Source of the DNA: Kiritimatiellia bacterium | GTDB lineage: Bacteria; Verrucomicrobiota; Kiritimatiellia; UBA8416; JBFIFS01 | Direction: 5' to 3' | Assembly (NCBI GenBank): GCA_041602695.1 | Contig: JBFIFS010000003.1 | Coordinates: 678 to 64,677 of the forward strand | Length of the DNA: 64,000 bases | In this document: positions 9,993-25,232 of the stretch, in pieces | How the letters are laid out: each line of letters begins with the position of its first letter | How positions within the stretch are numbered: position 1 is the stretch's first letter | The notes under the pieces: model-generated | What the model was told of the DNA's origin: nothing | Databases searched by the model: none | The model's input: the letters and a program-made list of their open reading frames with translations, nothing else | Position numbers and translations under genes: made by a program

Positions 9993-10030
9993 TTGCTGAA
10001 AACGTGGCCGGACTTACTGATTCAGAGTTC

Positions 10031-10059
10031 TTGACCGATACAGCCTATGCTGATAATGT
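10031..10059 (+). promoter_or_regulatory. possible sigma-70 promoter (TTGACC-N17-TAATGT with TG extended -10)
   Basis: TTGACC at 10031-10036, TG at 10051-10052, TAATGT at 10054-10059. It lies ~100 nt upstream of tRNA-Pro. Confidence 0.3.
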
Positions 10060-10159
10060 CCGCACTTGTTCCTGGCAGGCAGCCGCGGATCGAATGGATT
10101 TCGGCCGCCCGGGCTAGAAACCAATGGTCACTGATTACCGATCACTGACCACTGTTAAT

Positions 10160-10236
10160 CGGGGCGTAGCGCAGTCTGGTAGCGCACTTGAATGGGGTTC
10201 AAGTTGTCGCTGGTTCGAATCCAGTCGCCCCGACCA
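10160..10236 (+). tRNA. tRNA-Pro (anticodon GGG), CCA encoded
   Basis: Manual fold: acceptor CGGGGCG/CGCCCCG, anticodon stem CTTGA/TCAAG with loop ATGGGGT, T arm GCTGG-TTCGAAT-CCAGT, discriminator A, then CCA. Confidence 0.9.
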
Positions 10237-10353
10237 CCTGCTCCCGCAGGTGGACGACAGACGCAGATGAGAACCCTGGTTCGCGCAGATCCCGCAGGGA
10301 TCAATTGGCTCTATATTATTCATTGTCTTTAATCACGTCATTTCGCAACATGC

Positions 10354-11142: not shown

Positions 11143-11191
11143 CAATATGCTGTATCTCTAGAACTTCGATAACAGCTAAGCGGAGAACATC

Positions 11192-12211
11192 ATGAAGAAC
11201 AGTACCTTCTCGCTACTTTGCCTTATCCTTACGGCAGCACCTCACCTTGCGCGTGCAGACGTAAACAACGGCGACTTCGAGAGCAGCGCCGCGGGCGCTG
11301 CTGACGGCTGGACATATGAAATGACTGAGTTCCTGCAGGTGGCCAAGGAGGCCAATGGCAACAGTTACCTGAAATATGTTAAAGGCAAGCCGGAGTATTT
11401 TGACGCGAAGCAGACGGTCAATATTCCAGGCGGATCTGAAACCATCATGCTGCGGGCCCGCATGAGGCTGAAGGGCTTCGTGAGAAACCAGGACCAGCGA
11501 TGGAAGTGCCCTATGATAGGCATTGACTTCATCAAGGCTGACGGCAGCCGGCGGAAGGAAAAAGGCATCCACCTTGTTTCTGATTCAGGGGACGAATGGT
11601 TCTATCTGTACCGCATGATCAATGTCCCGAGAGGCGCCCAGCAGGCCGAGCTTACGCTAGTAAACGACGCGTCCGCAGGCGAGGTGCATTTCGACGACAT
11701 ATCCATCTCGACCGCCAACGACAAGATGCTCCCGCTCGAGGTAATAAATACGGCCGGACATTTCCAGGCCAGGACCGAGGATGAAACCGTGATCTTCGGC
11801 TGGCGAGCCAGGGTTGCCGGACGCGTACAGCTGCCGGAGAGCGGAGGCGAGTTCTACCTGAACCTGCAGGGTGAGCGGCGGAAAACTGCTTTTGCGGAAA
11901 CGATCCTCGAACTCAATCCCGCGTGGAAGAAGCTCAAGGTCAGCTGCCGCATGAAGAGTGAGTTTCTCGAGGTAGGATTCAGCCCCACTCACACGGTCAA
12001 GCTCGTCCTGGAGTTCGTCGATGAAAATGAAGAGAAGATGGACAAGTGGATCACTCCCATGCAGCTGAAAAGGGACACGCCTGACTGGACGGAGATGAAC
12101 AGCGAGTTCACCGTGCCGGAGGGCGCTGCCGGTCTGAAGATCACGCCGACTGTGCAGCAGTGCGACGGCTCCGGACAGTTCGACGACATCAAAGTCGAGG
12201 TATTACAGTAG
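11192..12211 (+). CDS. secreted protein with two tandem CBM/galactose-binding-like beta-sandwich modules
   Basis: Signal peptide MKNSTFSLLCLILTAAPHLARA. Both halves end in a similar motif (GEVHFDDISIS and GSGQFDDIKVEV). NGDFE...GW is typical of CBM4/9-like modules. Confidence 0.6.
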   Translation: MKNSTFSLLCLILTAAPHLARADVNNGDFESSAAGAADGWTYEMTEFLQVAKEANGNSYLKYVKGKPEYFDAKQTVNIPGGSETIMLRARMRLKGFVRNQDQRWKCPMIGIDFIKADGSRRKEKGIHLVSDSGDEWFYLYRMINVPRGAQQAELTLVNDASAGEVHFDDISISTANDKMLPLEVINTAGHFQARTEDETVIFGWRARVAGRVQLPESGGEFYLNLQGERRKTAFAETILELNPAWKKLKVSCRMKSEFLEVGFSPTHTVKLVLEFVDENEEKMDKWITPMQLKRDTPDWTEMNSEFTVPEGAAGLKITPTVQQCDGSGQFDDIKVEVLQ

Positions 12212-12332
12212 GCTCGGCGGAGCAATGACCGGCTGCAGGAGCCGCTTCCGCCCGCCTGAGACTCTTGTCACGGCCTTCAAGGAAACCTCCTGAAAACAGC
12301 CGCCCTTCTTTATAAAAACAAACTGGAAGGGC

Positions 12333-12361
12333 TTGCCCGGCCGCCTATAACGCGCTATAGT
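12333..12361 (+). promoter_or_regulatory. possible sigma-70 promoter (TTGCCC-N17-TATAGT) giving a leaderless or near-leaderless mRNA
   Basis: The -10 ends 9 nt before ATG 12371. There is no SD upstream of that ATG. Confidence 0.4.
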
Positions 12362-12370
12362 TTCTATTAT

Positions 12371-12895
12371 ATGAAAAGAATACTTTTTGGATCCGTTGCA
12401 ATATTTGTCCTCACAGCAGCATTCTGCCGTTGTCACGCGAATGAGGAAAATGCGAAGGAAAAGCCAGTCGCCCAGAAGCCGGCTGAAAAGGCAAAAGAGT
12501 TTCTCTCTGAAAGCTACACGGACCCTGAAACCAAGAAGGTATACAGGTGGATCGGGGAGTTCAGGCTCGATGACAGTCCCGCCGCGAGGATGAAAGCGAA
12601 ACTCAAGGGAAAGGCGGCTTACCGTATAACCGGGGCCCTCTACGAGATAAAGATGATAGGCTCGCGGGAGGTCCGGTCGCGCCAATCAGGGACTTGCTGG
12701 GTATATATCGAGGACGCTGACGGCAAAGAGGTCGCCAGGGCCACCAAATCTCTGAACACAATGTGCCCTTCGTGAGGGGGCCGAGGCGGCTACTTCGGTG
12801 AAGTAGCAAAAGAGGGCAAATACACTGCTGTCATCTGGACAAAGAAAGGCACGGCCAATATCGGTGCGAAGTACGAGCTTGATATCAAGTTCTAG
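12371..12895 (+). CDS. candidate exported selenoprotein (174 aa, Sec135 at UGA 12773-12775, CPSU motif), family unknown
   Basis: The track ORF stops at TGA 12773, but the frame stays open for 39 more codons to TAG 12893-12895. A SECIS-like hairpin lies 13 nt after the UGA. A signal peptide is present, a terminator follows the TAG, and the Sec machinery lies nearby. Confidence 0.6.
12789..12807 (+). promoter_or_regulatory. putative bacterial SECIS hairpin
   Basis: Perfect 7-bp stem GCUACUU/AAGUAGC with apical loop CGGUG (contains GGU). It begins 13 nt 3' of UGA 12773-12775. Confidence 0.55.
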
Positions 12896-12939
12896 CCCCG
12901 CCCTGCCCTCTTTCAGTCCCGTCAGATCTTTTTTCATGT

Positions 12940-12972
12940 ACACGCAGGCCAAGACGGCCTGCGTGTTTTTTT
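12940..12972 (+). terminator. rho-independent terminator
   Basis: ACACGCAGGCC-aagac-GGCCTGCGTGT (11-bp stem) followed by a T7 run. It starts 45 nt after TAG 12895. Confidence 0.75.
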
Positions 12973-13004
12973 ATGGTCGGTAACCACACAGGTTGGGAGA
13001 AAAT

Positions 13005-13808
13005 ATGAAATCGGTAGAGGGAATCGGACTGGAAAATGTGAAGGAAGTATACTCTGGCCCCGAAGGCGACCTTTGGGAGCTGGTAATGGGCGAGCAGATC
13101 CACATAGGCGGTTTCGCGTCATCTATGGACCTGGCTGAAAAGGCCGGCATCGGTGCAGGCATGAAGGGCGTTGACCTCTGCAGCTGCAACGGCGGCGGCG
13201 TTAGGTTCCTCCTGCGCTACCGCGAAGTCGCGGAAATGTCTGGGGTGGACGCAACCGAAAAGGTGGTCAACCAGGCCAACGAACGCTGTGCTGCGCAGGG
13301 GCTGGCCGAAAGGGCGTCCTTCGTCCTGGCCGACGTATGCGCCACAGGCCTGCCTGACGGCGAAGCTGATTTCGTCTGGGGTGAGGACGCGTGGTGTTAC
13401 GTCGAGGACAAAGCGGCGCTTATCAAAGAAGCCGCGCGAATCGTTAAGGACGGCGGAACAATCGCGTTCACCGACTGGGTGGAAGGCCCGGCGGGGCTGA
13501 GCGATGAAGAGGCGACCCGCTTCCTGACATTCATGAAGTTTCCAAATGTTCAGACGATAGACGGTTATGCCGCGCTTCTGAAGGCAGAGGGGTGCGAGGT
13601 GAGCGAAGCGTCTGACACAGGCCGGTTTGCTCCTTATTGCGCACTTTACATCGACATGCTGACAAAACAGCTTACAGGTGACGCGCTACGCATCATCGGC
13701 TACGACATGGAGCTGATGCAGGCCATGGGCGGAGAGATGGCATTCATGAAGGAGCTTGCCGAGGCGGGCAAGATTGCCCAGGGCCTTTTCATAGCAAAAA
13801 AGGGCTGA
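13005..13808 (+). CDS. class I SAM-dependent methyltransferase
   Basis: GVDLCSCNGGGVRFL (motif I variant) and KDGGTIAFTDW. GEQIHIGGF resembles the GGEDIHVGLY region of sarcosine/dimethylglycine-type N-methyltransferases (from memory). The track start at 12993 is TTG. ATG 13005 has GGGAGA 5 nt upstream. Confidence 0.75.
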   Translation: MKSVEGIGLENVKEVYSGPEGDLWELVMGEQIHIGGFASSMDLAEKAGIGAGMKGVDLCSCNGGGVRFLLRYREVAEMSGVDATEKVVNQANERCAAQGLAERASFVLADVCATGLPDGEADFVWGEDAWCYVEDKAALIKEAARIVKDGGTIAFTDWVEGPAGLSDEEATRFLTFMKFPNVQTIDGYAALLKAEGCEVSEASDTGRFAPYCALYIDMLTKQLTGDALRIIGYDMELMQAMGGEMAFMKELAEAGKIAQGLFIAKKG

Positions 13809-13815
13809 TCAGGTC

Positions 13816-15033
13816 ATGAGCAGATGCTGTCCGGGAAATACTGATAAGGCCGCCCAGTGTGATCCCACCTGCACTCCGCAGGTGGACACACAGGGCCACT
13901 CGGGCGCATGCCGTCCGGAATACCTGGCATGGTTCACCGACATGGTGAACCACGCCTATGAATTCGCGTCGGCAAAGAAAGAGCAGGGTTCCCCGATAGT
14001 GGGCATCATGTGCGAATACACGCCGCGCGAACTTATAATGGCAGCCGGAGCCGTTCCGGTCTGCATGTGCGGCGGGTCGGCAGAGATGATAACACCTGCC
14101 GAAGAGGACCTGCCGTCTAACCTCTGCCCCCTCATCAAGTCCACTTACGGGTACAGCGTTGAAAAGGCCAACCCTTTCATGGAGATGTGCGACCTGATAA
14201 TTGCTGAGACAACATGCGACGGAAAGAAGAAGATGTATGAACTTCTCAGCGAGCGCCACCCCATGCACGTTCTCGAGCTGACACAGAAGCCTGATGACGA
14301 GGACGCTTTCCTGCACTGGAAGTCCGAGCTTCAGAAGCTTCGTAATGCGCTGGAAGAGCGCTTCAACACGGAAATCACGGACGACAAGCTCAGGGCCGCC
14401 ATAGCGGAAATGAACCGCGAGCGATCGCTTCGCATGGATTTGGCGAAACTTATGCAGGACGACAATCCGCCAATCACGGGCCTGGAGCTGCTGGACCTGA
14501 AGAGCCTGATATCCTGCATCCCTGCCGACATCGACAACTACGAGAAAGCACTCCGGGCGCTTCCAGAAAGAGAGCGCGACAACGCGGCCAAAACGCGCGT
14601 GCTTGTTACAGGAGTCCCGATGCCGCATGGCGCGGAAAAGGTCATCAAGATCATTGAAGACATCGGCGGCATCGTTGTCTGCCAGGAAAACTGCACTGGT
14701 GTGAAACCGATCATCGAGCCCGTCTCTGAAGAAGGCGACCCGCTGGACGCGATCGCGCGGAAGTACTTCGAAATCCCCTGCTCCGTTATGACGCCTAACA
14801 CAGGCCGCATTGAGCTGTTGCGCGGCCTCTGCCGGGAATACCGTCCCGACTGTATCGTAGATGTGGTGTGGCAGGCATGCCTTACATACGACGTCGAGTC
14901 AAGGGCAGTCAGGCAATTCTGCGATAATGAGCTCGCGATCCCCTACATGAAGATAGAAACTGACTATTTCCCATCAGACGCAGCGCGAATAACCAACAGG
15001 CTGCAGGCGCTCTTCGAAACAGCCTCAATGTAG
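13816..15033 (+). CDS. 2-hydroxyacyl-CoA dehydratase/BcrBC-family (HGD-D) protein, paralog 1, with a Cys-rich N-terminus
   Basis: 405 aa. GIMCEYTPRELIMAAGAVPVCMCGG and TCDGKKKMYE are typical of the HgdAB/BadDE/YjiM family. The N-terminus is MSRCCPGNTDKAAQCDPTC. Confidence 0.7.
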   Translation: MSRCCPGNTDKAAQCDPTCTPQVDTQGHSGACRPEYLAWFTDMVNHAYEFASAKKEQGSPIVGIMCEYTPRELIMAAGAVPVCMCGGSAEMITPAEEDLPSNLCPLIKSTYGYSVEKANPFMEMCDLIIAETTCDGKKKMYELLSERHPMHVLELTQKPDDEDAFLHWKSELQKLRNALEERFNTEITDDKLRAAIAEMNRERSLRMDLAKLMQDDNPPITGLELLDLKSLISCIPADIDNYEKALRALPERERDNAAKTRVLVTGVPMPHGAEKVIKIIEDIGGIVVCQENCTGVKPIIEPVSEEGDPLDAIARKYFEIPCSVMTPNTGRIELLRGLCREYRPDCIVDVVWQACLTYDVESRAVRQFCDNELAIPYMKIETDYFPSDAARITNRLQALFETASM

Positions 15034-15038
15034 TTGCC

Positions 15039-15926
15039 ATGAACCCACTGACCGCAGCATATTCATCTCCATGGGTACCGGCGCCGCTGGTGAAGGCCTG
15101 CGGGTTCACGCCCCTTCCCATCTACAGCCCTTCCGATGAATACCCGGCTGCAAATGAACCCGTTCCGACAGAGGGCAGATGCCCCTGGTCTCGGGCCTTC
15201 GAAGACATGATTGAACAATCCGAATTCGCTGCAGTGATCATGACTACCACCTGTGACCAGATGCGTCGCACGGCGGAACTGCTGGAACAGGACCGGGGCG
15301 ACATCATAACACTGACCGTCCCCTCAACCACGTCCATATCGTCAATGCGCCTCTATCAGTCCGAGCTGAGGCGCCTGGCTTCCTTTCTTACCTCTCGCTC
15401 CGGCACCCCGCCCACCTCCGGAGCTATCCTCGGTGCCGCAGCCTCGATCAGGCCAAGAGCCTCCCAAAAGGCGGCGCGCACACCTGTTTGCCTCCTCGGC
15501 AGCCATCTCCCTGTTCCATTCGATGTATTTGAGGCAATCCTGGAGGAGCATGGGGCGTGCATAGCGATTGACGGTATGGAAGCGGGCCCCGCCTTCGCGC
15601 CCAGCCTTGACGATTTCACCGAGGGAGCAAGTCTCGAAGGAACAATCAACGCCCTTGGAGAGGCTTATTTCTCGCAAATCAAAGATTCATTCAGCCGCCC
15701 CAACTCGGCCTTTTATCGATGGCTCTCGCTGGAACTGAAGAGTGCCGCCCCGAAAGGAATAATCATCGCGCGCAACTGCTGGTGTGACAAGTGGGCGATC
15801 GAAGGGATCAGGATACGGGAGTGGACCGGGCTGCCGACACTTGAACTGGAATTCACGTCTGGGGAACTCTCGGTTTCGGCGATTTCCCGGCTTGAAGCGT
15901 TTATGGAAACATGCCGCAATGACTGA
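15039..15926 (+). CDS. HGD-D family protein, paralog 2 (short, 295 aa)
   Basis: PWVPAPLVKACGFTPLPI and TTTCDQMRR motifs are shared with paralogs 1 and 3. There is a 5-nt gap from paralog 1. Confidence 0.6.
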   Translation: MNPLTAAYSSPWVPAPLVKACGFTPLPIYSPSDEYPAANEPVPTEGRCPWSRAFEDMIEQSEFAAVIMTTTCDQMRRTAELLEQDRGDIITLTVPSTTSISSMRLYQSELRRLASFLTSRSGTPPTSGAILGAAASIRPRASQKAARTPVCLLGSHLPVPFDVFEAILEEHGACIAIDGMEAGPAFAPSLDDFTEGASLEGTINALGEAYFSQIKDSFSRPNSAFYRWLSLELKSAAPKGIIIARNCWCDKWAIEGIRIREWTGLPTLELEFTSGELSVSAISRLEAFMETCRND

Positions 15927-17298
15927 AATACCCAACAGGATCACGGTCAAGGAATGGGACCGGCGCTTCGCTGAAGACGCCGCAAAACTCATGGACGCCC
16001 ATGTGCCCTATCTCAAGCCCCTCACCGCGTACGTGGAGGAAGGCGACACTCGCCTTACCCGTCTCAAGTTTGACCCCTCGCCTGCATCGCTCTGGCTCTG
16101 GAACTTCCTGCTCAGCGAAAACGAGAGGCTGTCCGCGAAGCTCGAAGACGGGCATCGGCTGGTGGGAACCATGAAGGACCTTGGGACGGTCCCGGTGATG
16201 GCGTATTCGCTTCCCAACCTTACTGCTTTCTATCCGGACGGAGCGTGGTGGATCCCCTGTATCATGGAAGCTAACGCTTCTGCCCTGAAGGCGGCCGAAG
16301 AGCTCGGAATCAATGAATCAGTCTGTCCGGTCAGGGCAATGGTAGGAGCCATCGCCGCGGAATCGGACTTTCCTGTGCCTGGTCTTATGGTTTGCGCTGT
16401 GGGTGCCACCTGCGACGACTTCTCTGCACTCGCCCAGTTCATAAACGGACTGGGGCACGCAATACACTGGTGGGAACTGCCGCACAGGCGGGCTCCAGCA
16501 GCCGGCGAGGAATCCGTCACACTCCAGGGCGGGCTCTCGGCGCCTGCCTCCCTCGTTAGTTTCGTAGTGGAACAGCTCGCTGAAATCAGAAAGGCGCTCT
16601 CCAAATATGCGGGATCTGAACTCACTGATGAAGCCCTGCGTCTTGGGATAACAGAGGCAAACAGGGCCCGGTCCCTGATTCGGGAAATAAGGAACGCCGT
16701 CTTTTCATCAAAGAAGCGCCTTCTTTCCGCCGTGGACCTGCTGATAGCAGAAATGCTTATCATCCATTTCTGTTCCGACCGCGACGAATGTATCCGGCTG
16801 TTCGAGGCCATTCTCTCTGAAGTGAGGCAGCGAGAAGCCGTTGAGCCGGACTCCGACGCCGTCCGGATATTCTGGGTGAATCCGCCCTCGGACATCAAAG
16901 CAATGAACATCCTCGAAGACTGCGGAATGCGGCTGTGCGGCACTGACTTTATGTTCACTCATTCCCTTTCAGCAATACCCGAAGACCTGCCTCCGCTTGA
17001 AGCACTGGCAATGTGCGTTCTCGCGGACCCGATGATCGGCCCCACGCGTGACCGCGCGGGAATGATAACGGCCGAAAGCCGTCGGCTGGGAGCCGAGGGC
17101 ATCGTGGTTTCAAGGATTCCAGGAGCAAGCCATTGCGCCTTCGAGGGCAGCATTATAAAGGAGCTGGCGGGCGAAGAGCTTGACATTCCGGTGCTTGAGT
17201 TGGAGATTCCTCCGGTATGTGACGCCTACGAGCAGTCCATGAGAGGCCGCCTGGAGGCCCTGAGGGAAACAGTCATCGCGCGCAGGACCAGTCAATGA
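15919..17298 (+). CDS. HGD-D family protein, paralog 3 (459 aa)
   Basis: ATG 15919 overlaps the upstream stop (ATGACTGA). VCPVRAMVG, GATCDDF and the C-terminal IPGASHC...ELE region are typical of the family. Confidence 0.7.
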   Translation: MTEIPNRITVKEWDRRFAEDAAKLMDAHVPYLKPLTAYVEEGDTRLTRLKFDPSPASLWLWNFLLSENERLSAKLEDGHRLVGTMKDLGTVPVMAYSLPNLTAFYPDGAWWIPCIMEANASALKAAEELGINESVCPVRAMVGAIAAESDFPVPGLMVCAVGATCDDFSALAQFINGLGHAIHWWELPHRRAPAAGEESVTLQGGLSAPASLVSFVVEQLAEIRKALSKYAGSELTDEALRLGITEANRARSLIREIRNAVFSSKKRLLSAVDLLIAEMLIIHFCSDRDECIRLFEAILSEVRQREAVEPDSDAVRIFWVNPPSDIKAMNILEDCGMRLCGTDFMFTHSLSAIPEDLPPLEALAMCVLADPMIGPTRDRAGMITAESRRLGAEGIVVSRIPGASHCAFEGSIIKELAGEELDIPVLELEIPPVCDAYEQSMRGRLEALRETVIARRTSQ

Positions 17299-18086
17299 GT
17301 AAAGGAAGAGCATTTCTTGGGATAGACGCCGGGTCAAGGACCATCAAGGCCGTCCTGCTTTCAGGCGATGGCGAAGTAATTGACTCGGGGGTGGTCGACC
17401 AGGGCGTGAAACAGGCCGAGCTTGCCGAGGCCCTGGCCGCTGACCTCATAGCAGGGGCAGGCCTTGCGCGCGCCGATGTCGCAATGACCGTCGCAACGGG
17501 ATACGGCAGGGACCATATAGAACTGGCCAACACTACGTTTTCTGAAATCACATGCCATGCAAGGGGCGCGGCACATATTGCCCCCGATGCGCGCACCATC
17601 ATCGATATTGGCGGCCAGGACAGCAAGCTGATCAAGCTCGACGAAAAAGGACGGGTCCATGACTTTGCCATGAACGACCGCTGCGCGGCGGGAACTGGCC
17701 GCTTTCTTGAGGTGGTGGCCAGCAGGCTCGAGGTGCCGCTCGCCGAGCTCGACGCCCTCTCCGCCGCGTCCAAGTCGCCATGTATAATAAGCAGTACCTG
17801 CGTCGTCTTCGCGGAAACCGAAATCATAGGCCTCCTTGCACAGGAGATTCTACCGGCTGATATCGCGGCCGGGATATTCGCCGCAATAGCATCACGCGTG
17901 CAGGCAATGGCCGGCAGGCGTGTTGGCGAACCGGTGGTAATGACCGGAGGGGCCGCACTCTTTGAAGGACTGCATGAGGCGCTTGAAAAGGATTTTGGCG
18001 TAAAGATAACCGTAATCGAAAACCCAAGGCTTGCCGGCGCACTTGGAGCAGCGTTAATAGCAAAGGACAAAGCGGAAGAAGGATAA
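17295..18086 (+). CDS. CoA-substrate-specific enzyme activase (BcrAD/BadFG/HgdC-type ATPase)
   Basis: GIDAGSRTIKAVL, DIGGQDSK, NDRCAAGTGRFLE, VVMTGGAA. 263 aa. ATGA overlap with paralog 3. Confidence 0.85.
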   Translation: MSKGRAFLGIDAGSRTIKAVLLSGDGEVIDSGVVDQGVKQAELAEALAADLIAGAGLARADVAMTVATGYGRDHIELANTTFSEITCHARGAAHIAPDARTIIDIGGQDSKLIKLDEKGRVHDFAMNDRCAAGTGRFLEVVASRLEVPLAELDALSAASKSPCIISSTCVVFAETEIIGLLAQEILPADIAAGIFAAIASRVQAMAGRRVGEPVVMTGGAALFEGLHEALEKDFGVKITVIENPRLAGALGAALIAKDKAEEG

Positions 18087-18137
18087 ATCGAAAGATATAA
18101 CCGAATGCCCGGCGCCGTTCTGTGAGCTATGCCGGGG

Positions 18138-18161
18138 CACTTTCTGCGGATGCAGAAAGTG
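18138..18161. other. 10-bp hairpin between the activase 3' end and the tRNA-Sec 3' end (possible bidirectional terminator/processing structure)
   Basis: CACTTTCTGC-ggat-GCAGAAAGTG. No flanking U-tract on either strand. Confidence 0.35.
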
Positions 18162-18256
18162 GCGGGAGTGAGTGGGAATCGAACCCAACCGGGGCCGGTT
18201 AAAGCCCCACACTGGATTTGAAGTCCAGGAGGCCCACCAGGTACCTGTTCACTCCC
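18160..18256 (-). tRNA. selC: tRNA-Sec (anticodon UCA), CCA encoded, 97 nt
   Basis: 8-bp acceptor stem GGGAGTGA/TCACTCCC. Anticodon arm CTGGA-CTTCAAA-TCCAG. Long variable arm (GGGGC...GCCCC). T loop TTCGATT. Adjacent to selA. Confidence 0.9.
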
Positions 18257-18267
18257 AGCGGAATGCG

Positions 18268-18295
18268 ATATTATCAGTGATAAGGAGGATTTCAA
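18268..18295 (-). promoter_or_regulatory. predicted selC promoter (TTGAAA-N16-TAATAT with TG extended -10)
   Basis: On the minus strand, -35 is at 18295-18290 and -10 is at 18273-18268, 11 nt before the tRNA 5' end. It overlaps the selA SD (18282-18288) on the opposite strand. Confidence 0.5.
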
Positions 18296-19699
18296 ATGAA
18301 TAAAGCAAAGAACAAAGACAGCGGCAACGCGGCCCTGCTGCGCAGCATACCGGGCGTGGACGTGCTGCTGAAACAGGCGGAACTGCAGGCCGAGATCGAG
18401 CAGCACGGCATAAGCATTGTTACGGGAATTATCAAGGAATCGCTTGGCTTCCTTCGCGAGCAAATCAAAAGCAAAGGCAAAGGCGACACATCCTCGGAAT
18501 CTATCGTCACAGACTGCAAACGCCGGCTGGAACTGTCCCTTCAGCCGCGATTACGCCACGCAGTGAACGCTACGGGCATAATCCTGCATACCGGGCTTGG
18601 GCGGTCCCCTATCCCGCAGGCTGGACTCGACAGGCTGTCGGACTGCACGACGTTCTGCAACCTCCAGGCCGATCTGGAATCGGGAAAGAGGTCACGCCGC
18701 GAAGCCAACCTGACTGAAACGGTGAAGGCATTGACGGGCGCCGAAGACGCCATAGTTGTAAACAACTGTGCCGGCGCCACGATGCTTGTCCTGAAGGCCC
18801 TTGCGCGGGGGAGAGAAGTCGTGGTCTCCAGGGGCGAGCTCATCGAGATAGGCGGCTCTTTTCGTCTTCCGGACATCATGAAGGAGAGCGGAGCGGTCCT
18901 CAATGAGGTAGGATCAACTAACAAGACCCACCCGAAGGATTACGAATCTGCTGTAAGCGACAAAACCGCCGTGCTCTTCAAGGCACATAAGAGCAATTAC
19001 AGCATTGTGGGGTTTTCACAGGAAGTGACAATCGATGTGATCGCCGGAATTGGAAAGAAGCACGGCGTCACGGTGGTTGACGACCTCGGCTGCGGCGCGC
19101 TCGTCAATACGGAGAACTACGGCCTGCCGCACGAAGTAACGGTCCGGGAATCACTTGAAGCCGGCGCGGACGTAGCGCTGTTCAGCACAGACAAGCTCAT
19201 CGGCGGGCCGCAGGGCGGCATGATCGTCGGAAAGAAGGAGATAATTGAAAAGATCCGCAAGGACCCAATGTACAGGATCCTGCGAATCTGCAAACTGACT
19301 CTATCGGCACTGGAAGGAACACTAAAGCTCTTCACCCAGCCGGAGCTGCTGGAACGGAAACACCCCCTCTACGCGACACTTGCCAGGCAGCCGGCCGACA
19401 TCACCGGACAGGCAAAGCGGATTGCTGACGAGCTTAGCAGGACCCAGCCCGGCTGGAAGGTTGAGGCCGTAGAAACCACCTCGATCCTCGGCGGCGGCTC
19501 ACTGCCCGGCGCCGAGCTGCCGTCCAGCGGAGTTTCAATAACTGCTGACGGACTGTCAGCGCAGGCGCTCGCATCCTCGTTCCGCAACTCGCCGACTCCG
19601 GTGTTCGGCCGGATAGAAAAAGAAACGTTCATACTGGATGTGCGAACAGTTACAGAGCAGGATGAAAAGGCAATAATCAAGACAGCTGAAAACTTATGA
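18296..19699 (+). CDS. selA: L-seryl-tRNA(Sec) selenium transferase
   Basis: NATGIILHTGLGRS and FSTDKLIGGPQGG (PLP-Lys). AAGGAGG SD. 467 aa. Confidence 0.9.
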   Translation: MNKAKNKDSGNAALLRSIPGVDVLLKQAELQAEIEQHGISIVTGIIKESLGFLREQIKSKGKGDTSSESIVTDCKRRLELSLQPRLRHAVNATGIILHTGLGRSPIPQAGLDRLSDCTTFCNLQADLESGKRSRREANLTETVKALTGAEDAIVVNNCAGATMLVLKALARGREVVVSRGELIEIGGSFRLPDIMKESGAVLNEVGSTNKTHPKDYESAVSDKTAVLFKAHKSNYSIVGFSQEVTIDVIAGIGKKHGVTVVDDLGCGALVNTENYGLPHEVTVRESLEAGADVALFSTDKLIGGPQGGMIVGKKEIIEKIRKDPMYRILRICKLTLSALEGTLKLFTQPELLERKHPLYATLARQPADITGQAKRIADELSRTQPGWKVEAVETTSILGGGSLPGAELPSSGVSITADGLSAQALASSFRNSPTPVFGRIEKETFILDVRTVTEQDEKAIIKTAENL

Positions 19700-21666
19700 G
19701 CAAGGCCAGGAAGACAGCATGCGGCGGGGGCGCACCACAGGCCCAGGAAAGCCCTGACGCCCGTACCGTTTGCCTCACGGTCGGTACGGCAGGGCATATA
19801 GATCATGGGAAGACGCAGCTGACCATCTTCCTCACCGGCTGCAATACGGACCGACTTCCTGAAGAGAAGTCACGCGGCATGACCATTGACCTTGGCTTCG
19901 CCACATGCATCCTCCCTGACAATCGAAGAATCGGGATCGTGGACGTGCCAGGGCACGAAAAATTTGTCCACAACATGGTCGCTGGAGCCACAGGCATTGA
20001 TGTTGTGCTGCTCGTTATAGCTGCTGACGACGGCGTTATGCCGCAGACCATTGAGCATTTCCATATTGTCCGCCTCCTTGGAATCAAGGCAGGCATGATA
20101 GCGATCACAAAGACAGACCTTGTCGACAGCGCCCGCGTCGAGACAGTCAGGGCCCAGGCGGAGCAGCTTGTGGCCGGGAGCTTCCTCGACGGCGCGCCCA
20201 TCGTGCCCCTTTCAACGAAGACTGGCGAAGGATACGATGAGTTCTATACGAAGTTTGTTGAACTCGTAGACCATATGGCTGAGCGAGAATCTTCCGGCCC
20301 ATTCCGAATGCACGTTGAGCGCGCGTTCGTGTTGAAGGGCCTGGGCACGATCGTCTCGGGCATCCCGGTGTCAGGCCGGATCACACAGGGAGACACGCTC
20401 GAGCTTCTGCCTGAAGGGCGGAAGGTGAGAGTAAAGGGGCTGCAGGTCTACGGCCAGAAATCCAGGGAAGGCCTTTCCGGGGAATGTGTTGCTATAAACC
20501 TGGCGGACATCCAGCATACCGAGCTGCACCGGGGAATGCAGCTCTGCGCTCCGGGGTTCTTCGAATCCGCGCGCTTCTTCGACGTGCGCTTCTTTTCCCT
20601 GCCCTCCGTCGGGAAACCGCTCAAGCCGAGACAGCAGATACGCCTGCACCTGGGAACGTCGGATGTCCCCGGCCATCTTGTTTTGCCCACTAACGAACCG
20701 CTCAAACCGGGTGAGGAGACATACGCGCAGCTCCAGATGAAACGCGGCGTGGTTGCCGCACCCGGCGATTCGTTCATACTCAGGACCCTCAGCCCCATCA
20801 CGACTGTAGGGGGCGGCTATGTCGTCTCACCTGACGACAAGCGCCTGCGCAGAAGACACAGCGACTCTTGGGCCAACTCGCTCGAAGAAAAGGAGCGTGT
20901 CATGGACAGCGTGTCCGATACGATTATGCAGGCCTTCTCAACTGAGAGCCCCATTCCGCTCGGCCTCGATGACATCGCAAAAGCTGCGCTGCTCCATGAG
21001 GACGCCCTGGGCGAGGACATTTCGAAACTTATTGAAAGCGGCAGGCTCAGGCTGACAGCCAAGCGCAAATATGTGAGCAAAGACATGATAGAAAGGGCCG
21101 AAACAGTGATCGTAGACCGCATTACGGCCCTTCACAAAGAAGTGCAGCTGTCGGCGGGTTTTTCGAAGAAAGAGATCTATTCATCGCTGTCCGCCAATCA
21201 CGATATCATGGACATGGCCCTTGAATCGCTCATAGAAAAGAAGGTCATCACCCGCTCCACTCACGGCTATTTCATAACCTCCATGGCGCCGGCACTCTCT
21301 GACGCGCAGGCGAAGATAGCGGAAAAGATACTCAGCCTTTACTCTGAAACACGCTTCAAGAGTCCACGGAGGGACGAGGTGCCAGAAAGGGTTGCTGCAC
21401 CCGAAAAGGCTTCCGGCAAGATCATGAACTACCTCCTGCAAACCGGCAGGCTGGTCGACATCGGCAGCGGAGTCATTCTGCATGAAGATGTCATCGAGGA
21501 ATCGAAGGCCATAATCTCCGACTATCTCGCCGAACATGACTCGCTTGACGCGGCATCCTTCAAGAACCTGATAGACTCATCCCGTAAATATGCTATTCCA
21601 CTGCTTGAATACTGGGACGGCAAGGGGCTCACGAAGCGAATTGGAAACAGCAGAATACTGAAGTAA
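19696..21666 (+). CDS. selB: selenocysteine-specific translation elongation factor
   Basis: G domain (GTAGHIDHGKT, DVPGHEKF, TKTD) plus a long C-terminal winged-helix region. ATGA overlap with selA. 656 aa. Confidence 0.9.
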   Translation: MSKARKTACGGGAPQAQESPDARTVCLTVGTAGHIDHGKTQLTIFLTGCNTDRLPEEKSRGMTIDLGFATCILPDNRRIGIVDVPGHEKFVHNMVAGATGIDVVLLVIAADDGVMPQTIEHFHIVRLLGIKAGMIAITKTDLVDSARVETVRAQAEQLVAGSFLDGAPIVPLSTKTGEGYDEFYTKFVELVDHMAERESSGPFRMHVERAFVLKGLGTIVSGIPVSGRITQGDTLELLPEGRKVRVKGLQVYGQKSREGLSGECVAINLADIQHTELHRGMQLCAPGFFESARFFDVRFFSLPSVGKPLKPRQQIRLHLGTSDVPGHLVLPTNEPLKPGEETYAQLQMKRGVVAAPGDSFILRTLSPITTVGGGYVVSPDDKRLRRRHSDSWANSLEEKERVMDSVSDTIMQAFSTESPIPLGLDDIAKAALLHEDALGEDISKLIESGRLRLTAKRKYVSKDMIERAETVIVDRITALHKEVQLSAGFSKKEIYSSLSANHDIMDMALESLIEKKVITRSTHGYFITSMAPALSDAQAKIAEKILSLYSETRFKSPRRDEVPERVAAPEKASGKIMNYLLQTGRLVDIGSGVILHEDVIEESKAIISDYLAEHDSLDAASFKNLIDSSRKYAIPLLEYWDGKGLTKRIGNSRILK

Positions 21667-21677
21667 AGGAACCTAAT

Positions 21678-23255
21678 ATGGACCCTAAGGAAAAACGCAA
21701 GAGAGTGATGACCCGCTCTATCAAGCTGGGCCACTGCGTATGCGACCCGAAGAAGCCGTGCCCCTGCCCACTCTTTGAAGAGAAGAACATATGCACCTGC
21801 GCCGGGGAGCGGGAGCCCGTGGAAAGGTCCTCGTCAGGTGTGCGCCTGACGGATTTTGTGAGGGCCGCCGGATGCGCCAGCAAGATCGGACAGAAAGACC
21901 TGCACGAAGTGCTCAAACTCCTCCCGGAGGTAAATGACCCTCGACTGCTGGTCGGTATAGCAACTGCCGATGACGCCGGCGTGTTTCAGCTTACAGACGA
22001 CACCGCGGTTGTCCAGACGGTAGACGTCTTTACGCCTGGCGTCAACGACCCGCACACCTTCGGACGTATCGCCGCGTGCAATTCCCTCAGCGATGTCTAC
22101 GCCATGGGCGGAAAGCCCGTTACTGCCCTGTCGATAATTGGATTCCCGATCTACTCCCTTCCGCACGAGGTCATGGCTGACATTATCAAGGGCGGAATGG
22201 AAGTGCTCAAGGAAGCCGGCACCATCCTGCTCGGCGGGCACAGTATCAATGACGAGGAGATCAAGTTCGGCTTCGCGGTTACAGGTCTTATCGGTAAAGA
22301 CGCGCTAATCACAAACAGCGGCGCGCAGCCCGGCGATGTGGTAGTCTTGACCAAGGCCCTGGGCACCGGAATCATTTCCCTGGCGGACCAGATCAACAAG
22401 GCATCTGCCGAGTCAATAGCCGCCCTTTCCGAATCAATGTCCACGCTTAACCGGATTCCGTCGGAGATCATGACGGAATGCGGGGCACACGCCTGTACCG
22501 ACGTAACGGGGTTCGGGCTCCTCGGACACATGGCGCAGGTCGTAAAGGAGAGCGGCGTGACTGTCGAAATCAGCACTGAGGCGCTGCCGCTGCTGCCGTC
22601 CGTGATGGAATACGCCGAGGGCGGCATGTATTCCGGCGCCAACGAACGAAATGCCGAATACAGCGCGCCCGTCACTGAATTCGATGAGAGCATTCCGGAA
22701 CACGTCAGGGCCATACTTTATGACGCCCAGACTTCCGGAGGTTTGCTCATATTCTTCCCGCCCGAACGCGCAGACGAGGCCTTGCAGAAAATGCATGACC
22801 AGGGCGTGGGCTACGCGTCAGTAATAGGCCGCGTCACCGAAGCGTCTGAAGGCAGAATAATCATCAAGAGCTCGATCGACTCAACAACCAATCCAAATGA
22901 AAAGACAACAGGCAAACCATCGTCCGCAAAGGATGAGGAGGACAATGAAATGACGAATGAAGCATGCTGCACGCACGACGCCCCAACGGGGGAAGCCGGC
23001 GATCCTATCCAGAAGTTCAAGAATTTCATATCATCAACACTGCAGCCGGGCGCGATTGATGTTGTCTCCAAAGAGCTTATTGCGCTGGCACTGAGCATAG
23101 GCGTACAGTGTGTGCCATGCTCGAAGATGCACGTGAAGAAGGCGCTCGAGATGGGAATCAGCAAGGAAGAGATCGAAGAGGCGGCCGCAATCTCAATTGC
23201 CTTTGGGGGCTGCAAATCACTTATGCTCTGGATGGAACTCAAGAAGGAGATGTAG
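21678..23255 (+). CDS. selD: selenide,water dikinase fused to an N-terminal Cys-rich module and a C-terminal AhpD/CMD-like CxxC domain
   Basis: SelD core: RLTDFVRAAGCASKIG (Cys form, Cys66) plus AIR-synthase-like repeats. The N-terminus is GHCVCDPKKPCPCPLFEEKNICTC. The C-terminus LIALALSIGVQCVPCSKMH is a carboxymuconolactone-decarboxylase-family motif. Confidence 0.85.
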   Translation: MDPKEKRKRVMTRSIKLGHCVCDPKKPCPCPLFEEKNICTCAGEREPVERSSSGVRLTDFVRAAGCASKIGQKDLHEVLKLLPEVNDPRLLVGIATADDAGVFQLTDDTAVVQTVDVFTPGVNDPHTFGRIAACNSLSDVYAMGGKPVTALSIIGFPIYSLPHEVMADIIKGGMEVLKEAGTILLGGHSINDEEIKFGFAVTGLIGKDALITNSGAQPGDVVVLTKALGTGIISLADQINKASAESIAALSESMSTLNRIPSEIMTECGAHACTDVTGFGLLGHMAQVVKESGVTVEISTEALPLLPSVMEYAEGGMYSGANERNAEYSAPVTEFDESIPEHVRAILYDAQTSGGLLIFFPPERADEALQKMHDQGVGYASVIGRVTEASEGRIIIKSSIDSTTNPNEKTTGKPSSAKDEEDNEMTNEACCTHDAPTGEAGDPIQKFKNFISSTLQPGAIDVVSKELIALALSIGVQCVPCSKMHVKKALEMGISKEEIEEAAAISIAFGGCKSLMLWMELKKEM

Positions 23256-23258
23256 AGA

Positions 23259-23921: not shown

Positions 23922-24073
23922 CCGGGGACTGCTGCAGCGCTGTCAATCTGGATTGCAACTGAAGCTTGATGGCCCTATTCTGTTGCCTTAGGGCAGAGTC
24001 GACGACTGCAGAGGCCGTAATACCTTATGATGCTGCGTCTGCGTGCCTATCACAAGAAGACAGGAATAAGTGC

Positions 24074-25210: not shown

Positions 25211-25232
25211 ACCCGTATATTTATTGCCGCTG

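What the first reader, a model, noticed from the sequence alone, without database searches (positions are those of the whole stretch)
13005..18086. Methyltransferase + three HGD-D paralogs + one activase: an uncharacterised ATP-driven low-potential reductase-type operon inside the selenium locus
Five genes are packed with gaps of 7 and 5 nt and overlaps of 8 and 4 nt:
- a SAM methyltransferase;
- three paralogous members of the 2-hydroxyacyl-CoA dehydratase / benzoyl-CoA reductase BC family (405, 295 and 459 aa);
- a single HgdC/BcrAD-type ATPase activase.

Known systems of this family use two HGD-D subunits plus an activase, or a single one in the YjiM / double-cubane cluster proteins. They are normally flanked by CoA-transferase or acyl-CoA genes. 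Here there are three paralogs, no CoA-handling gene, and a methyltransferase instead. Paralog 1 carries an extra Cys-rich N-terminus (MSRCCPGNTDKAAQCDPTC...C, 13816-13911).

Only 32 nt separate the upstream terminator from the methyltransferase start, and I see no credible promoter there. The operon is therefore probably expressed by read-through from the selenoprotein gene. The operon is followed directly by selC-selA-selB-selD. The substrate is unknown. A role in selenium or chalcogen (or other small-molecule) reduction and methylation is speculation based only on context.
Basis: partly seen in the sequence, partly recalled or inferred. Interest (0 to 1): 0.75.

Follow-up and report, generated by a model that had tools for sequence, protein, structure and literature searches.

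The report
ATP-driven iron-sulfur reductase operon tied to selenium activation
A tightly packed five-gene operon (a methyltransferase, three related iron-sulfur reductase subunits and their ATP-powered electron injector) sits beside the selenium-activating gene selD in this and dozens of related bacteria, which points to an undescribed route for preparing selenium for selenoprotein synthesis.

Summary
The genes are a SAM methyltransferase (13005-13808), three HGD-D paralogs (H1 405 aa, H2 295 aa, H3 459 aa) and one HgdC-type activase (17295-18086). The gaps are 7 and 5 nt and the overlaps 8 and 4 nt.

H1 is a double-cubane-cluster protein (DCCP): it passes NF040772 and keeps all seven motif cysteines. 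H2 and H3 are divergent. H2 keeps three invariant Cys and lacks the helical middle domain. H3 keeps six or seven.

H3 relatives occur in 403 species genomes, mostly of the PVC group. Of 51 loci with enough flank, 32 carry selD and 39 carry at least one of selD, selA or selB within 10 kb. The usual order is MT-H1-H2-H3-activase-selD.

In four lineages a cysteine in H1's N-terminal tail is replaced by in-frame UGA followed by a SECIS-like hairpin. No CoA genes recur.

My best reading (inferred, about 0.5) is an ATP-driven, low-potential Fe-S reductase system that prepares reduced selenium for SelD. I found no paper describing the operon.

tRNA-Sec lies on the minus strand. Read-through from the upstream selenoprotein gene is unsupported.

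The parts
13005..13808 (+). Class I SAM-dependent methyltransferase (MT), 267 aa. Invariant Cys at 59, 61, 131 and 197; position 60 is Cys in 59 of 60 orthologs and Ser in the window.
   Evidence: Pfam Methyltransf_11/25/31. No NCBIfam family reaches its cut-off. Nearest solved structures are phosphoethanolamine N-methyltransferases (E 9e-16), but their catalytic Tyr/His align to W24/Y132. It is the most conserved gene of the set, at about 60-72% identity in 61 loci.
13816..15033 (+). H1: DCCP-type HGD-D protein, 405 aa.
   Evidence: NF040772 double_cubane 420.8 bits against a cut-off of 350. E 1e-61 to C. hydrogenoformans DCCP 6ENO/7YYL. All seven motif Cys are conserved (66, 85, 104, 134, 293 and 322 in 63/63 orthologs, 355 in 62/63).
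13816..13911 (+). Cys-rich N-terminal tail of H1 (C4, C5, C15, C19, C32).
   Evidence: Orthologs share M-x-K-C-C-G...D-P-C-x-P-P...C. In L002, L062, L065 and L073 the last Cys is an in-frame TGA followed 14-20 nt later by a SECIS-like hairpin.
15039..15926 (+). H2: short, divergent HGD-D paralog, 295 aa. Three invariant Cys (48, 72, 249). The intermediate helical domain is deleted.
   Evidence: Pfam HGD-D E 5e-20. The profile hits DCCP at E 5e-17 with a gap of about 52 residues. AF2 model pLDDT 85.7; Foldseek top hits are DCCP, HadC and MbdN (TMq 0.70-0.78). Cys conservation.
15919..17298 (+). H3: divergent HGD-D paralog, 459 aa, with an N-terminal extension of about 75 aa. Invariant Cys 114, 136, 165, 285 and 406; C159 in 83/84, C340 in 79/84, C335 in 71/84.
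   Evidence: Pfam HGD-D E 2e-33. More than 2,600 database relatives, about 55% identical in PVC MAGs. AF2 pLDDT 85.2; Foldseek hits DCCP, HadB/C, MbdN/O and BzdN/O. Cys conservation.
17295..18086 (+). HgdC/DCCP-R-type ATPase activase ('archerase'), 263 aa.
   Evidence: TIGR00241 241 bits against a cut-off of 125, and PF01869. C130 and C169 are invariant in 75/75 orthologs. From my own knowledge, their spacing matches the two cluster-ligand cysteines of HgdC.
18164..18256 (-). tRNA-Sec (selC), antisense to the operon.
   Evidence: ARAGORN. Rfam RF01852 72.7 bits. Promoter-like site at 18295-18268 on the minus strand. Same position and orientation in relatives L087 and L089.
18296..19699 (+). 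selA.
   Evidence: PF03841 E 6e-129.
19696..21666 (+). selB.
   Evidence: ORF. Orthologs in related loci carry GTP_EFTU and SelB winged-helix domains.
21678..23255 (+). selD fusion: N-terminal CxC/CPC/CxC segment, SelD core (Cys type) and C-terminal AhpD/CMD CxxC domain.
   Evidence: TIGR00476 367 bits, PF02627 CMD E 5e-14. The same three-part SelD lies directly after the activase in most other loci.
12371..12895 (+). Upstream secreted CPSU selenoprotein candidate. UGA at 12773-12775, SECIS-like hairpin at about 12789-12807. Context only; not shown to belong to the operon.
   Evidence: The frame continues through the TGA. The hairpin folds at -15.5 kcal/mol, z -2.6. The protein is conserved across the TGA in L089.
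12940..12978 (+). Intrinsic-terminator-like hairpin plus T-run between the selenoprotein gene and the methyltransferase.
   Evidence: 11-pair stem, 8 G-C pairs.

Best explanation
The five genes encode an ATP-driven, very-low-potential iron-sulfur reductase system whose job is tied to selenium activation.

Proposed mechanism:
1. The activase is an HgdC/DCCP-R-type homodimer with a bridging [4Fe-4S] cluster. It takes an electron from ferredoxin or flavodoxin, neither of which is encoded here, and injects it on ATP hydrolysis into two acceptors.
2. The first acceptor is H1, a double-cubane [8Fe-9S] protein. Its flexible N-terminal tail carries Cys, or Sec in some species, and acts as a swinging redox or selenium-carrier arm.
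3. The second acceptor is an H2/H3 heterodimer. H2 has a three-Cys, open-site [4Fe-4S] of the BzdO/HadB type. H3 has a six-to-seven-Cys site of the BzdN type.
4. The system reduces an oxidised or bound selenium species to selenide. Candidates are Se(0), a selenotrisulfide or perselenide on protein thiols, or an organoselenium compound.
5. The selenide passes to the SelD fusion protein, which makes selenophosphate for SelA.
6. The SAM methyltransferase methylates surplus selenide or a pathway intermediate.

What is shown:
- gene content and family and fold assignments;
- conserved cysteine sets;
- operon-like packing;
- conserved synteny with selD, selA, selB and selC;
- Cys/Sec exchange in the H1 tail.

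What is inferred:
- cluster types;
- H2/H3 pairing;
- the selenium substrate;
- the direction of flow to SelD;
- the methyltransferase's role.
For: 1. Synteny.
- H3 relatives occur in 403 species genomes.
- In the 85 fetched loci the order MT-H1-H2-H3-activase is kept, and selD follows the activase in 53.
- Of 51 loci with at least 3.5 kb on both sides, 32 have selD and 39 have at least one sel gene within 10 kb. By my estimate chance would give about 1%.
- The arrangement varies: selA and selB may be divergent upstream, downstream, or inserted before selD as in the window, L087 and L089. selC is also in the island. Varied arrangement argues that the linkage is maintained by selection, not only inherited.

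2. Packing. Median spacings are 28, 0, -3 and -3 nt within the five genes and about 84 nt to selD.

3. The H1 tail has Cys/Sec pairs with SECIS-like hairpins in four lineages. A Cys/Sec exchange suggests a redox-active residue.

4. The associated SelD always carries extra Cys-rich and AhpD-like CxxC domains. This fits a thiol-based hand-over of selenium.

5. H1 meets the DCCP definition. DCCPs reduce small molecules at very low potential and have no known physiological substrate (PMC7317905).

6. 955 of 970 strong DCCPs lie in SelD-encoding genomes (bioRxiv 10.1101/2022.07.06.499078). A Slackia selenium island also holds HGD subunits and an activase (PMC5322559, Table 1).

7. H2 lacks the helical domain that forms the CoA channel in BzdNO (PMC11971306), and no CoA genes recur.

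8. The in-vivo selenium donor for SelD is an acknowledged gap (PMC13188914).
Against: - There is no biochemical evidence. The substrate is inferred from context only.
- sel genes commonly cluster with selenoprotein genes. H1 is a selenoprotein in some species, and other selenoprotein genes lie nearby (the CPTU ORF, and the CPSU ORF in the window). The synteny could therefore reflect co-location of selenoprotein genes with their synthesis machinery.
- 12 of 51 well-flanked loci have no sel gene within 10 kb.
- A few loci have MT-H2-H3 without H1 or selD.
- The methyltransferase resembles N-methyltransferases more than known Se or As methyltransferases. Its role in the model is the weakest step.
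- The need for three paralogs is unexplained.
- The 85 loci are phylogenetically related, so the counts are not independent events.
Confidence: 0.5

Rival explanations
1. This is an unrelated small-molecule reductase and methylation pathway. It sits in the selenium island only because H1 is, or ancestrally was, a selenoprotein, and bacteria tend to place sel genes next to selenoprotein genes. The substrate would be some refractory non-selenium compound.
For: - H1 carries Sec in four lineages.
- Other selenoprotein genes lie in the same islands: the CPTU ORF and the CPSU ORF in the window and L089.
- 12 of 51 loci lack nearby sel genes.
- DCCP reduces acetylene, azide and hydrazine in vitro (PMC7317905).
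Against: - Most orthologs of H1 have Cys, not Sec, yet selD is still the next gene.
- The four Sec-containing loci have selA and selB nearby but not selD. selD linkage therefore does not track Sec use in H1.
- DCCPs in general co-occur with SelD although no Sec-containing form has been reported (bioRxiv 10.1101/2022.07.06.499078; none in the catalogue of PMC13188914).
Confidence: 0.2
2. The HGD-D proteins need selenium themselves. SelD supplies selenophosphate to build a selenium-bridged analogue of the [8Fe-9S] double cubane, or another Se-containing Fe-S site, in H1, H2 or H3. The operon's catalytic substrate need not contain selenium.
For: - Haft and Gwadz list this as a formal possibility to explain the DCCP-SelD co-occurrence (bioRxiv 10.1101/2022.07.06.499078).
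- selD lies directly downstream of the activase in most loci.
Against: - Solved DCCP and BzdN structures were modelled with a bridging sulfur (PMC7317905, PMC11971306).
- The idea does not explain the Cys/Sec tail, the methyltransferase or the extra thiol domains on SelD.
- The selD here is also the housekeeping one next to selA, selB and selC.
Confidence: 0.12
3. The operon is a metalloid or heavy-metal (As, Te, Hg) reduction and methylation detoxification system, with the methyltransferase acting like ArsM or TehB.
For: - Weak NCBIfam similarity of the methyltransferase to ArsM-type models (33 bits against cut-offs of 240-510).
- A Cys-rich H1 tail and a Cys-lined methyltransferase motif I.
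- CC and CU motifs are linked to metal handling in the SAO system (bioRxiv 10.1101/2022.07.06.499078).
Against: - No ars, mer or teh genes recur in the neighbourhoods.
- All methyltransferase matches are far below family cut-offs.
- The consistent neighbours are sel genes.
Confidence: 0.05
4. The operon is a classical 2-hydroxyacyl-CoA dehydratase or class I benzoyl-CoA reductase used in carbon catabolism.
For: Pfam HGD-D and BcrAD_BadFG membership. Public annotations read '2-hydroxyacyl-CoA dehydratase' or 'BcrC/BadD/HgdB'.
Against: - Equivalog models fail by a wide margin: BzdN 76 against 454 bits, BcrC 72 against 421, HadC 66 against 700.
- There is a single ATPase gene, not a BcrA/D or BzdP/Q pair.
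- No CoA-transferase, CoA-ligase or acyl-CoA genes occur in the window or recur in 85 loci.
- H2 lacks the CoA-channel helical domain.
Confidence: 0.03

Closest known systems
Double-cubane cluster protein DCCP with its reductase DCCP-R (Carboxydothermus hydrogenoformans CHY_0487/0488; PDB 6ENO, 7YYL); E. coli YjiM/YjiL
   Same: - H1 passes the NF040772 model, aligns over its full core (E 1e-61) and keeps the 7-Cys motif.
- An archerase-type ATPase is encoded in the same operon.
- DCCP channels are described as too narrow for CoA esters, and no CoA-handling gene accompanies H1 here.
- The physiological substrate is unknown in both.
   Different: - The known systems are two-gene (one DCCP, one reductase).
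- Here there are two further divergent HGD-D paralogs, a methyltransferase and a linked selD.
- H1 has an extra N-terminal Cys/Sec tail.
- Motif spacings differ slightly (x18, x18, x29, x158, x28, x32).
Class I benzoyl-CoA reductase BzdNOPQ / MbdONPQ (PDB 8S02, 9GAI)
   Same: - It is a heterodimer of two dissimilar HGD-D subunits. One has a six-Cys [8Fe-9S] electron store (BzdN) and one a three-Cys open-site [4Fe-4S] (BzdO).
- H3 and H2 show the analogous Cys counts, and their genes overlap.
- Electron injection is ATP-dependent.
   Different: - Bzd and Bcr use two different ATPase subunits; here there is one.
- There is no CoA ligase or downstream ring-cleavage pathway.
- H2 lacks the helical domain that builds the CoA channel.
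- Equivalog scores are far below cut-off.
2-hydroxyacyl-CoA dehydratases HgdAB+HgdC, HadBC+HadI, FldBC+FldI
   Same: The fold matches (TM 0.6-0.84 to HadB and HadC). A single homodimeric activase with a bridging cluster serves the HGD-D subunits.
   Different: - No CoA-transferase or 2-hydroxyacid dehydrogenase genes are present.
- There are three paralogs, one of them a full DCCP.
- The synteny is with sel genes, not with amino-acid fermentation genes.
[quoted passage not shown]
   Same: These are precedents for DCCP or HGD-D genes plus an activase lying next to selenium-related genes, and for genome-level co-occurrence with SelD.
   Different: - They come from other phyla (Firmicutes, Deltaproteobacteria, Actinobacteria) and have different partners (Sao ABC transporter, YedE/YedF, Sec lyase).
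- They lack the methyltransferase, the H2/H3 pair and a selD fused to Cys-rich and AhpD-like domains.
- Neither source proposes a mechanism for the linkage; Haft and Gwadz list only possibilities, and the Slackia association is an uninterpreted table entry.
Mammalian thioredoxin reductase C-terminal Gly-Cys-Sec-Gly tail (functional analogy only)
   Same: A flexible terminal Cys/Sec segment shuttles electrons from a buried redox centre to external substrates. These substrates include selenite and selenodiglutathione, which are reduced to selenide (from my own knowledge).
   Different: The fold and cofactors are unrelated (flavoprotein against Fe-S cluster). The tail here is N-terminal. The analogy is untested.

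Membership tests
DCCP (NF040772 double-cubane-cluster-containing anaerobic reductase), tested for H1 | Score above the curated equivalog cut-off | tested here: met
   420.8 bits against a cut-off of 350. H2 (41 bits) and H3 (38 bits) do not meet it.
DCCP, tested for H1 | Seven-Cys motif CX19CX18-19CX29CX166-170CX32-34CX32C | tested here: met
   C66, C85, C104, C134, C293 and C322 are conserved in 63/63 orthologs and C355 in 62/63. They align to the DCCP cysteines. The spacings are x18, x18, x29, x158, x28, x32, so a literal regular expression fails while the alignment is column-for-column.
DCCP, tested for H1 | Partner archerase-type ATPase reductase encoded alongside | tested here: met
   The activase at 17295-18086 is in the same operon. 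It is present in 78 of 85 loci.
DCCP, tested for H1 | Presence of an [8Fe-9S] cluster and ATP-dependent small-molecule reduction | not testable with these tools
   This needs protein purification, Fe/S analysis, EPR and crystallography.
HgdC/DCCP-R 'archerase' activase | TIGR00241 or PF01869 membership and two conserved cluster-ligand cysteines per monomer | tested here: met
   TIGR00241 241 bits against 125. C130 and C169 are invariant in 75/75 orthologs.
2-hydroxyacyl-CoA dehydratase (HgdAB/HadBC) | Equivalog-level similarity to a dehydratase subunit | tested here: not met
   HadC model: H1 65.7 and H3 19.6 bits against a cut-off of 700.
2-hydroxyacyl-CoA dehydratase (HgdAB/HadBC) | Neighbouring CoA-transferase, acyl-CoA or 2-hydroxyacid dehydrogenase genes | tested here: not met
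   None within about 6 kb upstream or 8 kb downstream in the window. None among the recurrent neighbour clusters of 85 loci.
Class I benzoyl-CoA reductase (BcrABCD/BzdNOPQ) | Two distinct ATPase subunits (BcrA/D or BzdP/Q) | tested here: not met
   There is one BcrAD_BadFG gene in the window and in each related locus.
Class I benzoyl-CoA reductase (BcrABCD/BzdNOPQ) | Equivalog-level similarity to BzdN/O or BcrB/C | tested here: not met
   BzdN 75.8 against 453.8 bits; BcrC 71.6 against 421 bits.
Class I benzoyl-CoA reductase (BcrABCD/BzdNOPQ) | Heterodimer with a six-Cys [8Fe-9S] subunit and a three-Cys [4Fe-4S] subunit | tested here: inconclusive
   H3 has five fully invariant Cys plus C159 in 83/84, and H2 has three invariant Cys. 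The H2 and H3 genes overlap. Actual pairing and cluster types are not shown.
Arsenite or selenium methyltransferases (ArsM and related NCBIfam models) | Score above the family cut-off | tested here: not met
   Best ArsM-type hits are about 33 bits against cut-offs of 240-510. The DVU_1556 family scores 43 against 155.
Phosphoethanolamine N-methyltransferase | Catalytic Tyr/His dyad (the Tyr19/His132 numbering for the Plasmodium enzyme is from my own knowledge) | tested here: not met
   In the alignment to 5WP5 the positions are W24 and Y132.

The most novel reading that the evidence does not exclude
This operon is a dedicated, ATP-powered selenium-reducing and trafficking machine. A double-cubane enzyme with a Cys/Sec swinging arm works with a BzdNO-like H2/H3 pair. 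Together they convert poorly available selenium (elemental Se, protein-bound selenotrisulfides or organoselenium) into selenide, which is handed directly to a thiol-domain-decorated SelD. If so, selenium reduction would be the long-sought physiological function of at least one DCCP clade. It would also identify a selenium donor system for SelD in anaerobic PVC bacteria.
Probability: 0.35. Interest if true: 0.9.

Novelty: new variant of a known kind. Interest (0 to 1): 0.8.

Why it matters
This locus joins two open questions.

First, DCCP-type enzymes carry a nitrogenase-like [8Fe-9S] cluster and need ATP to reach very negative potentials, yet no physiological substrate is known (PMC7317905).

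Second, how cells deliver reduced selenium to selenophosphate synthetase is, in a 2026 review's words, 'incompletely elucidated', and no dedicated prokaryotic selenium acquisition system is established (PMC13188914).

A conserved operon that couples a DCCP, two further HGD-D paralogs, their activase and a methyltransferase to selD turns both into one testable hypothesis. The operon occurs in hundreds of species genomes of environmentally abundant, mostly uncultured PVC bacteria.

The analysis also shows that a DCCP-type protein can be a selenoprotein, with Sec in its N-terminal tail. That form is absent from the current selenoprotein catalogue I could read. The same loci hold a small C-terminal 'CPTU-x-x-stop' selenoprotein beside a NapH-like membrane ferredoxin.

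Tried and rejected
- Exact-sequence look-ups to identify the source organism found nothing useful. H3 is not on record.
- The SelD N-terminal CxC/CPC/CxC segment looked to me like the catalytic chain of ferredoxin-thioredoxin reductase. A PDB sequence search and Pfam gave no support. The idea stays an untested resemblance.
- I looked in the window for the NapH-like protein, the DUF3034 protein and the CPTU ORF seen in other loci. None is present.
- A PDB search with H2 as a single sequence found nothing. Only the ten-sequence profile and the AF2 model placed it.
- A literal regular expression for the published 7-Cys motif fails on H1 because two spacers are shorter. The alignment shows the cysteines are equivalent.
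- A literature search for DVU_1556, the weak best NCBIfam hit of the methyltransferase, found no papers.
- Rfam found no riboswitch or other RNA in 9000-26000 beyond the two tRNAs.
- The sigma-70 scan found no promoter between the terminator and the methyltransferase start. This does not prove read-through.
- The pseudogene-fragment idea is rejected. All ORFs are intact and conserved.
- The third protein search, on H2, returned only 10 relatives because of the word prefilter.
- I did not use the metagenome scan or the representative-library search. They would add no genomic context beyond the 85 loci.

Full report
**Observation**

- methyltransferase (MT) 13005-13808;
- H1 13816-15033 (405 aa);
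- H2 15039-15926 (295 aa);
- H3 15919-17298 (459 aa);
- activase 17295-18086.

The gaps are 7 and 5 nt and the overlaps 8 and 4 nt. Pfam gives Methyltransf_11 for the methyltransferase, PF06050 HGD-D for all three paralogs (E 9e-101, 5e-20, 2e-33) and PF01869 for the activase.

selA, selB and a selD fusion follow. tRNA-Sec lies between the activase and selA but on the minus strand, with a promoter-like site of its own. The terminator hairpin at 12940-12966 is real. Flanking genes are CstA, a SIS-CBS protein, BacA, a CBM-like secreted protein, a GDSL lipase, GH10 and a cation-efflux (CDF) protein. None handles CoA.

**What the proteins are**

H1 is a bona fide double-cubane-cluster protein (DCCP).
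- It scores 420.8 bits on NF040772 against a cut-off of 350.
- It aligns to the C. hydrogenoformans DCCP over its whole core at E 1e-61.
- All seven motif cysteines are conserved in 62-63 of 63 orthologs.

H2 and H3 are far more divergent. They score 41 and 38 bits on the same model.

H2:
- A ten-sequence profile matches DCCP end to end (E 5e-17), except for a deletion of about 52 residues in the intermediate helical region.
- The AF2 model (pLDDT 85.7) superposes on DCCP, HadC and MbdN.
- Only three cysteines are invariant (48, 72, 249). They are equivalent to DCCP motif cysteines 3, 4 and 7.

H3:
- The model has pLDDT 85.2 and hits every solved member of the family at TM 0.67-0.84.
- Five cysteines are fully invariant, C159 is present in 83 of 84 orthologs, and two more are conserved in most orthologs.

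In BzdNO, BzdN binds an [8Fe-9S] cluster through six Cys, and BzdO binds a catalytic [4Fe-4S]-OH2 through three Cys. The intermediate helical domain helps form the CoA channel (PMC11971306). By analogy, H3 plus H2 look like a BzdN/BzdO-type pair without a CoA channel. This is an inference.

The activase passes TIGR00241 (241 bits against 125) and keeps two invariant cysteines, C130 and C169.

The methyltransferase is a class I SAM enzyme.
- Its nearest solved relatives are phosphoethanolamine N-methyltransferases (E 9e-16), but their catalytic Tyr/His align to W24/Y132.
- No NCBIfam family reaches its cut-off.
- It is the most conserved gene of the set, at about 60-72% identity.
- It has invariant cysteines in and around motif I.

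**Comparative context**

H3 has more than 2,600 database relatives, typically 55% identical and about 460 aa long.

A pattern scan of one genome per species found relatives in 403 genomes. The best 80 are almost all Phycisphaerae/Sedimentisphaerales, Pirellulales, Planctomycetaceae, Victivallales, Kiritimatiellae and Verrucomicrobiota. A few are labelled Hydrogenedentota, Sumerlaeota or Armatimonadota.

A tblastn census of 85 loci gave these counts:

| Gene or domain | Loci |
|---|---|
| H3 | 85 |
| H2 | 82 |
| activase | 78 |
| H1 | 75 |
| MT | 61 |
| SelD core | 53 |
| SelD N-terminal Cys-rich segment | 55 |
| SelD C-terminal CMD domain | 47 |
| SelB | 30 |
| SelA | 29 |

Many loci are truncated, so these counts are lower bounds.

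Among 51 loci with at least 3.5 kb on both sides of H3, 32 hold selD and 39 hold at least one sel gene within 10 kb. The canonical order is MT-H1-H2-H3-activase-selD. Median spacings are 28, 0, -3, -3 and about 84 nt.

selA and selB are often divergent upstream. selC commonly follows selD. The window's own clade (L087 at 69% and L089 at 58% H3 identity) shares the window order, with selC on the minus strand and selA-selB inserted before selD.

The three well-flanked loci that lack H1 also lack selD. This is a small-sample hint that H1 and selD travel together.

No CoA-related family appears among the recurrent neighbour clusters. The recurrent neighbours are:
- a NapH-like Fer4_5 membrane protein (23 loci);
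- a DUF3034 protein (19 loci);
- an ABC transporter in up to 10 loci (ATPase subunit in 10, substrate-binding and permease subunits in 6 each).

**Selenocysteine in the system**

The H1 tail is conserved as M-x-K-C-C-G...D-P-C-x-P-P...C.

In L002 (with L003 and L004, which carry the same sequence), L062, L065 and L073, the last Cys is an in-frame TGA. A hairpin follows 14-20 nt later, for example CCUCC-CGUGA-GGAGG. That hairpin also explains the conserved PSREE peptide seen only in most of the Sec forms (L002, L062, L073). A Cys/Sec pair plus a SECIS-like element is the usual signature of a genuine selenoprotein.

The 2026 catalogue of prokaryotic selenoproteins never uses the words dehydratase, cubane or benzoyl-CoA, so I found no DCCP or HGD-D type entry in it.

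Between selD and the NapH-like gene, many loci encode a protein of about 100 aa. It has an N-terminal TM helix and ends ...CPT-U-x-x-stop. A hairpin lies in the 3' UTR and shows compensatory changes at two of six pairs.

The window instead has the upstream CPSU ORF, with a hairpin of -15.5 kcal/mol (z -2.6). It is conserved across the TGA in L089.

**Literature**

- DCCPs have no known physiological function (PMC7317905).
- Haft and Gwadz reported that 955 of 970 strong NF040772 proteins lie in SelD-encoding genomes. They listed selenium-compound processing, or a selenium-bridged cluster, as possible explanations (bioRxiv 10.1101/2022.07.06.499078).
- A STRING table for the Slackia selenium island lists HGD subunits and an activase among YedE, YedF and SelD neighbours, without comment (PMC5322559).
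- I found no paper that describes this five-gene operon, its linkage to selD in PVC bacteria, or Sec-containing DCCPs.
- The library is limited to open-access text, so absence is not proof.

**Mechanism**

I commit to an ATP-driven Fe-S reductase system that works upstream of SelD.
1. The activase energises electrons.
2. H1 uses its double cubane and its Cys/Sec tail to reduce a bound or oxidised selenium species.
3. H2/H3 perform a second small-molecule step or store electrons.
4. Selenide passes to a SelD that carries extra thiol domains.
5. The methyltransferase handles surplus selenide or an intermediate.

Only composition, conservation, cysteine patterns, the Cys/Sec exchange and synteny are shown. 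Substrate, cluster types, subunit pairing and direction of flow are inferred. I put this reading at about 0.5.

The rivals are:
- co-location with sel genes because H1 is or was a selenoprotein (0.2);
- a selenium-containing cluster that needs SelD (0.12);
- metalloid detoxification (0.05);
- classical CoA-ester chemistry (0.03).

**Verdict**

Two details fail: selC is antisense, and read-through from the selenoprotein gene has no support. The terminator is strong, it is not visible in L089, and upstream genes differ in other genomes.

The system is built from known families but in an undescribed combination and context. I therefore rate it a new variant of a known kind, with high interest. 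It makes two long-standing questions jointly testable: the physiological role of DCCPs and the selenium donor to SelD.

Noticed in passing
L002 7759 and 7825; L062 7777; L065 7847; L073 7766 (UGA positions in locus coordinates): Orthologs of H1 carry an in-frame TGA in place of the last tail cysteine, followed by a SECIS-like hairpin. L002 has two such sites in a tandem repeat. This indicates a selenoprotein form of a DCCP-type enzyme, which the 2026 selenoproteome review does not list.
   Followed up: partly
L001 about 14240-14545; L005 14278-14574; 18 distinct sequences in all (for example L006, L012, L040, L055, L057, L072, L080): A membrane-anchored ORF of about 100 aa ends ...TY.G.AP.(A/L)CPT-UGA-x-x-stop. 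A conserved 3'-UTR hairpin shows compensatory changes at 2 of 6 pairs. The ORF lies directly upstream of a NapH-like Fer4_5 membrane ferredoxin and often just after selC. No NCBIfam model matches it.
   Followed up: partly
window 12371-12895 (UGA 12773-12775; hairpin about 12789-12807): This is a secreted protein with a CPS-U-GGRGGYFGEVAKEGKYTA motif. The frame continues through the TGA. A perfect 8-bp hairpin with a GGUG loop follows (-15.5 kcal/mol, z -2.6). The protein and hairpin are conserved in L089. It has no family match in Pfam or NCBIfam.
   Followed up: partly
window 21678-23255, and SelD genes of 47-55 related loci: SelD is a three-part fusion. It has an N-terminal HCVCDPKKPCPCP...CTC segment (60-85% identical across loci), a Cys-type SelD core and a C-terminal AhpD/CMD CxxC domain. 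The N-terminal segment has no Pfam or PDB sequence match. Its resemblance to ferredoxin-thioredoxin reductase motifs is unverified.
   Followed up: partly
window 18164-18256 (minus strand); promoter-like site 18295-18268: tRNA-Sec is antisense to the flanking operon and to selA, with its own TTGAAA-16-TAATAT site. The same orientation is seen in L087 and L089. In Phycisphaerae-type loci selC is co-directional and lies after selD.
   Followed up: yes
L025, L026, L067, L081: These are variant loci with (MT-)H2-H3(-activase) but no H1. The two with enough flanking sequence to judge (L026, L081) also have no selD nearby. This suggests H2/H3 form the core module and H1 plus selD a coupled addition.
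   Followed up: no
L002 168-7365 and 12422-14365: The MT-less variant carries a rhodanese-Kelch protein, two unknown proteins, an SSF-family transporter and an OPT transporter around the H1-H2-H3-activase genes.
   Followed up: no
19 loci, for example L083 6092-7015 and L006 1331-2254: A DUF3034 protein (Pfam E 2e-26), which I take to be an outer-membrane-like beta-barrel, recurs immediately upstream of the methyltransferase. A NitT/TauT-like ABC transporter (my family guess; ATPase in 10 loci, binding protein and permease in 6 each) and a pyridoxamine-oxidase-like protein (7 loci; family guessed from sequence, not tested) also recur.
   Followed up: no
window 13179-13187 (MT residues 59-61): SAM-binding motif I of the methyltransferase reads D-L-C-(C/S)-C-N-G-G-G, with three consecutive cysteines in 59 of 60 orthologs. 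C131 and C197 are also invariant or nearly so (60/60 and 59/60). This is unusual for class I methyltransferases and may line the substrate pocket.
   Followed up: no
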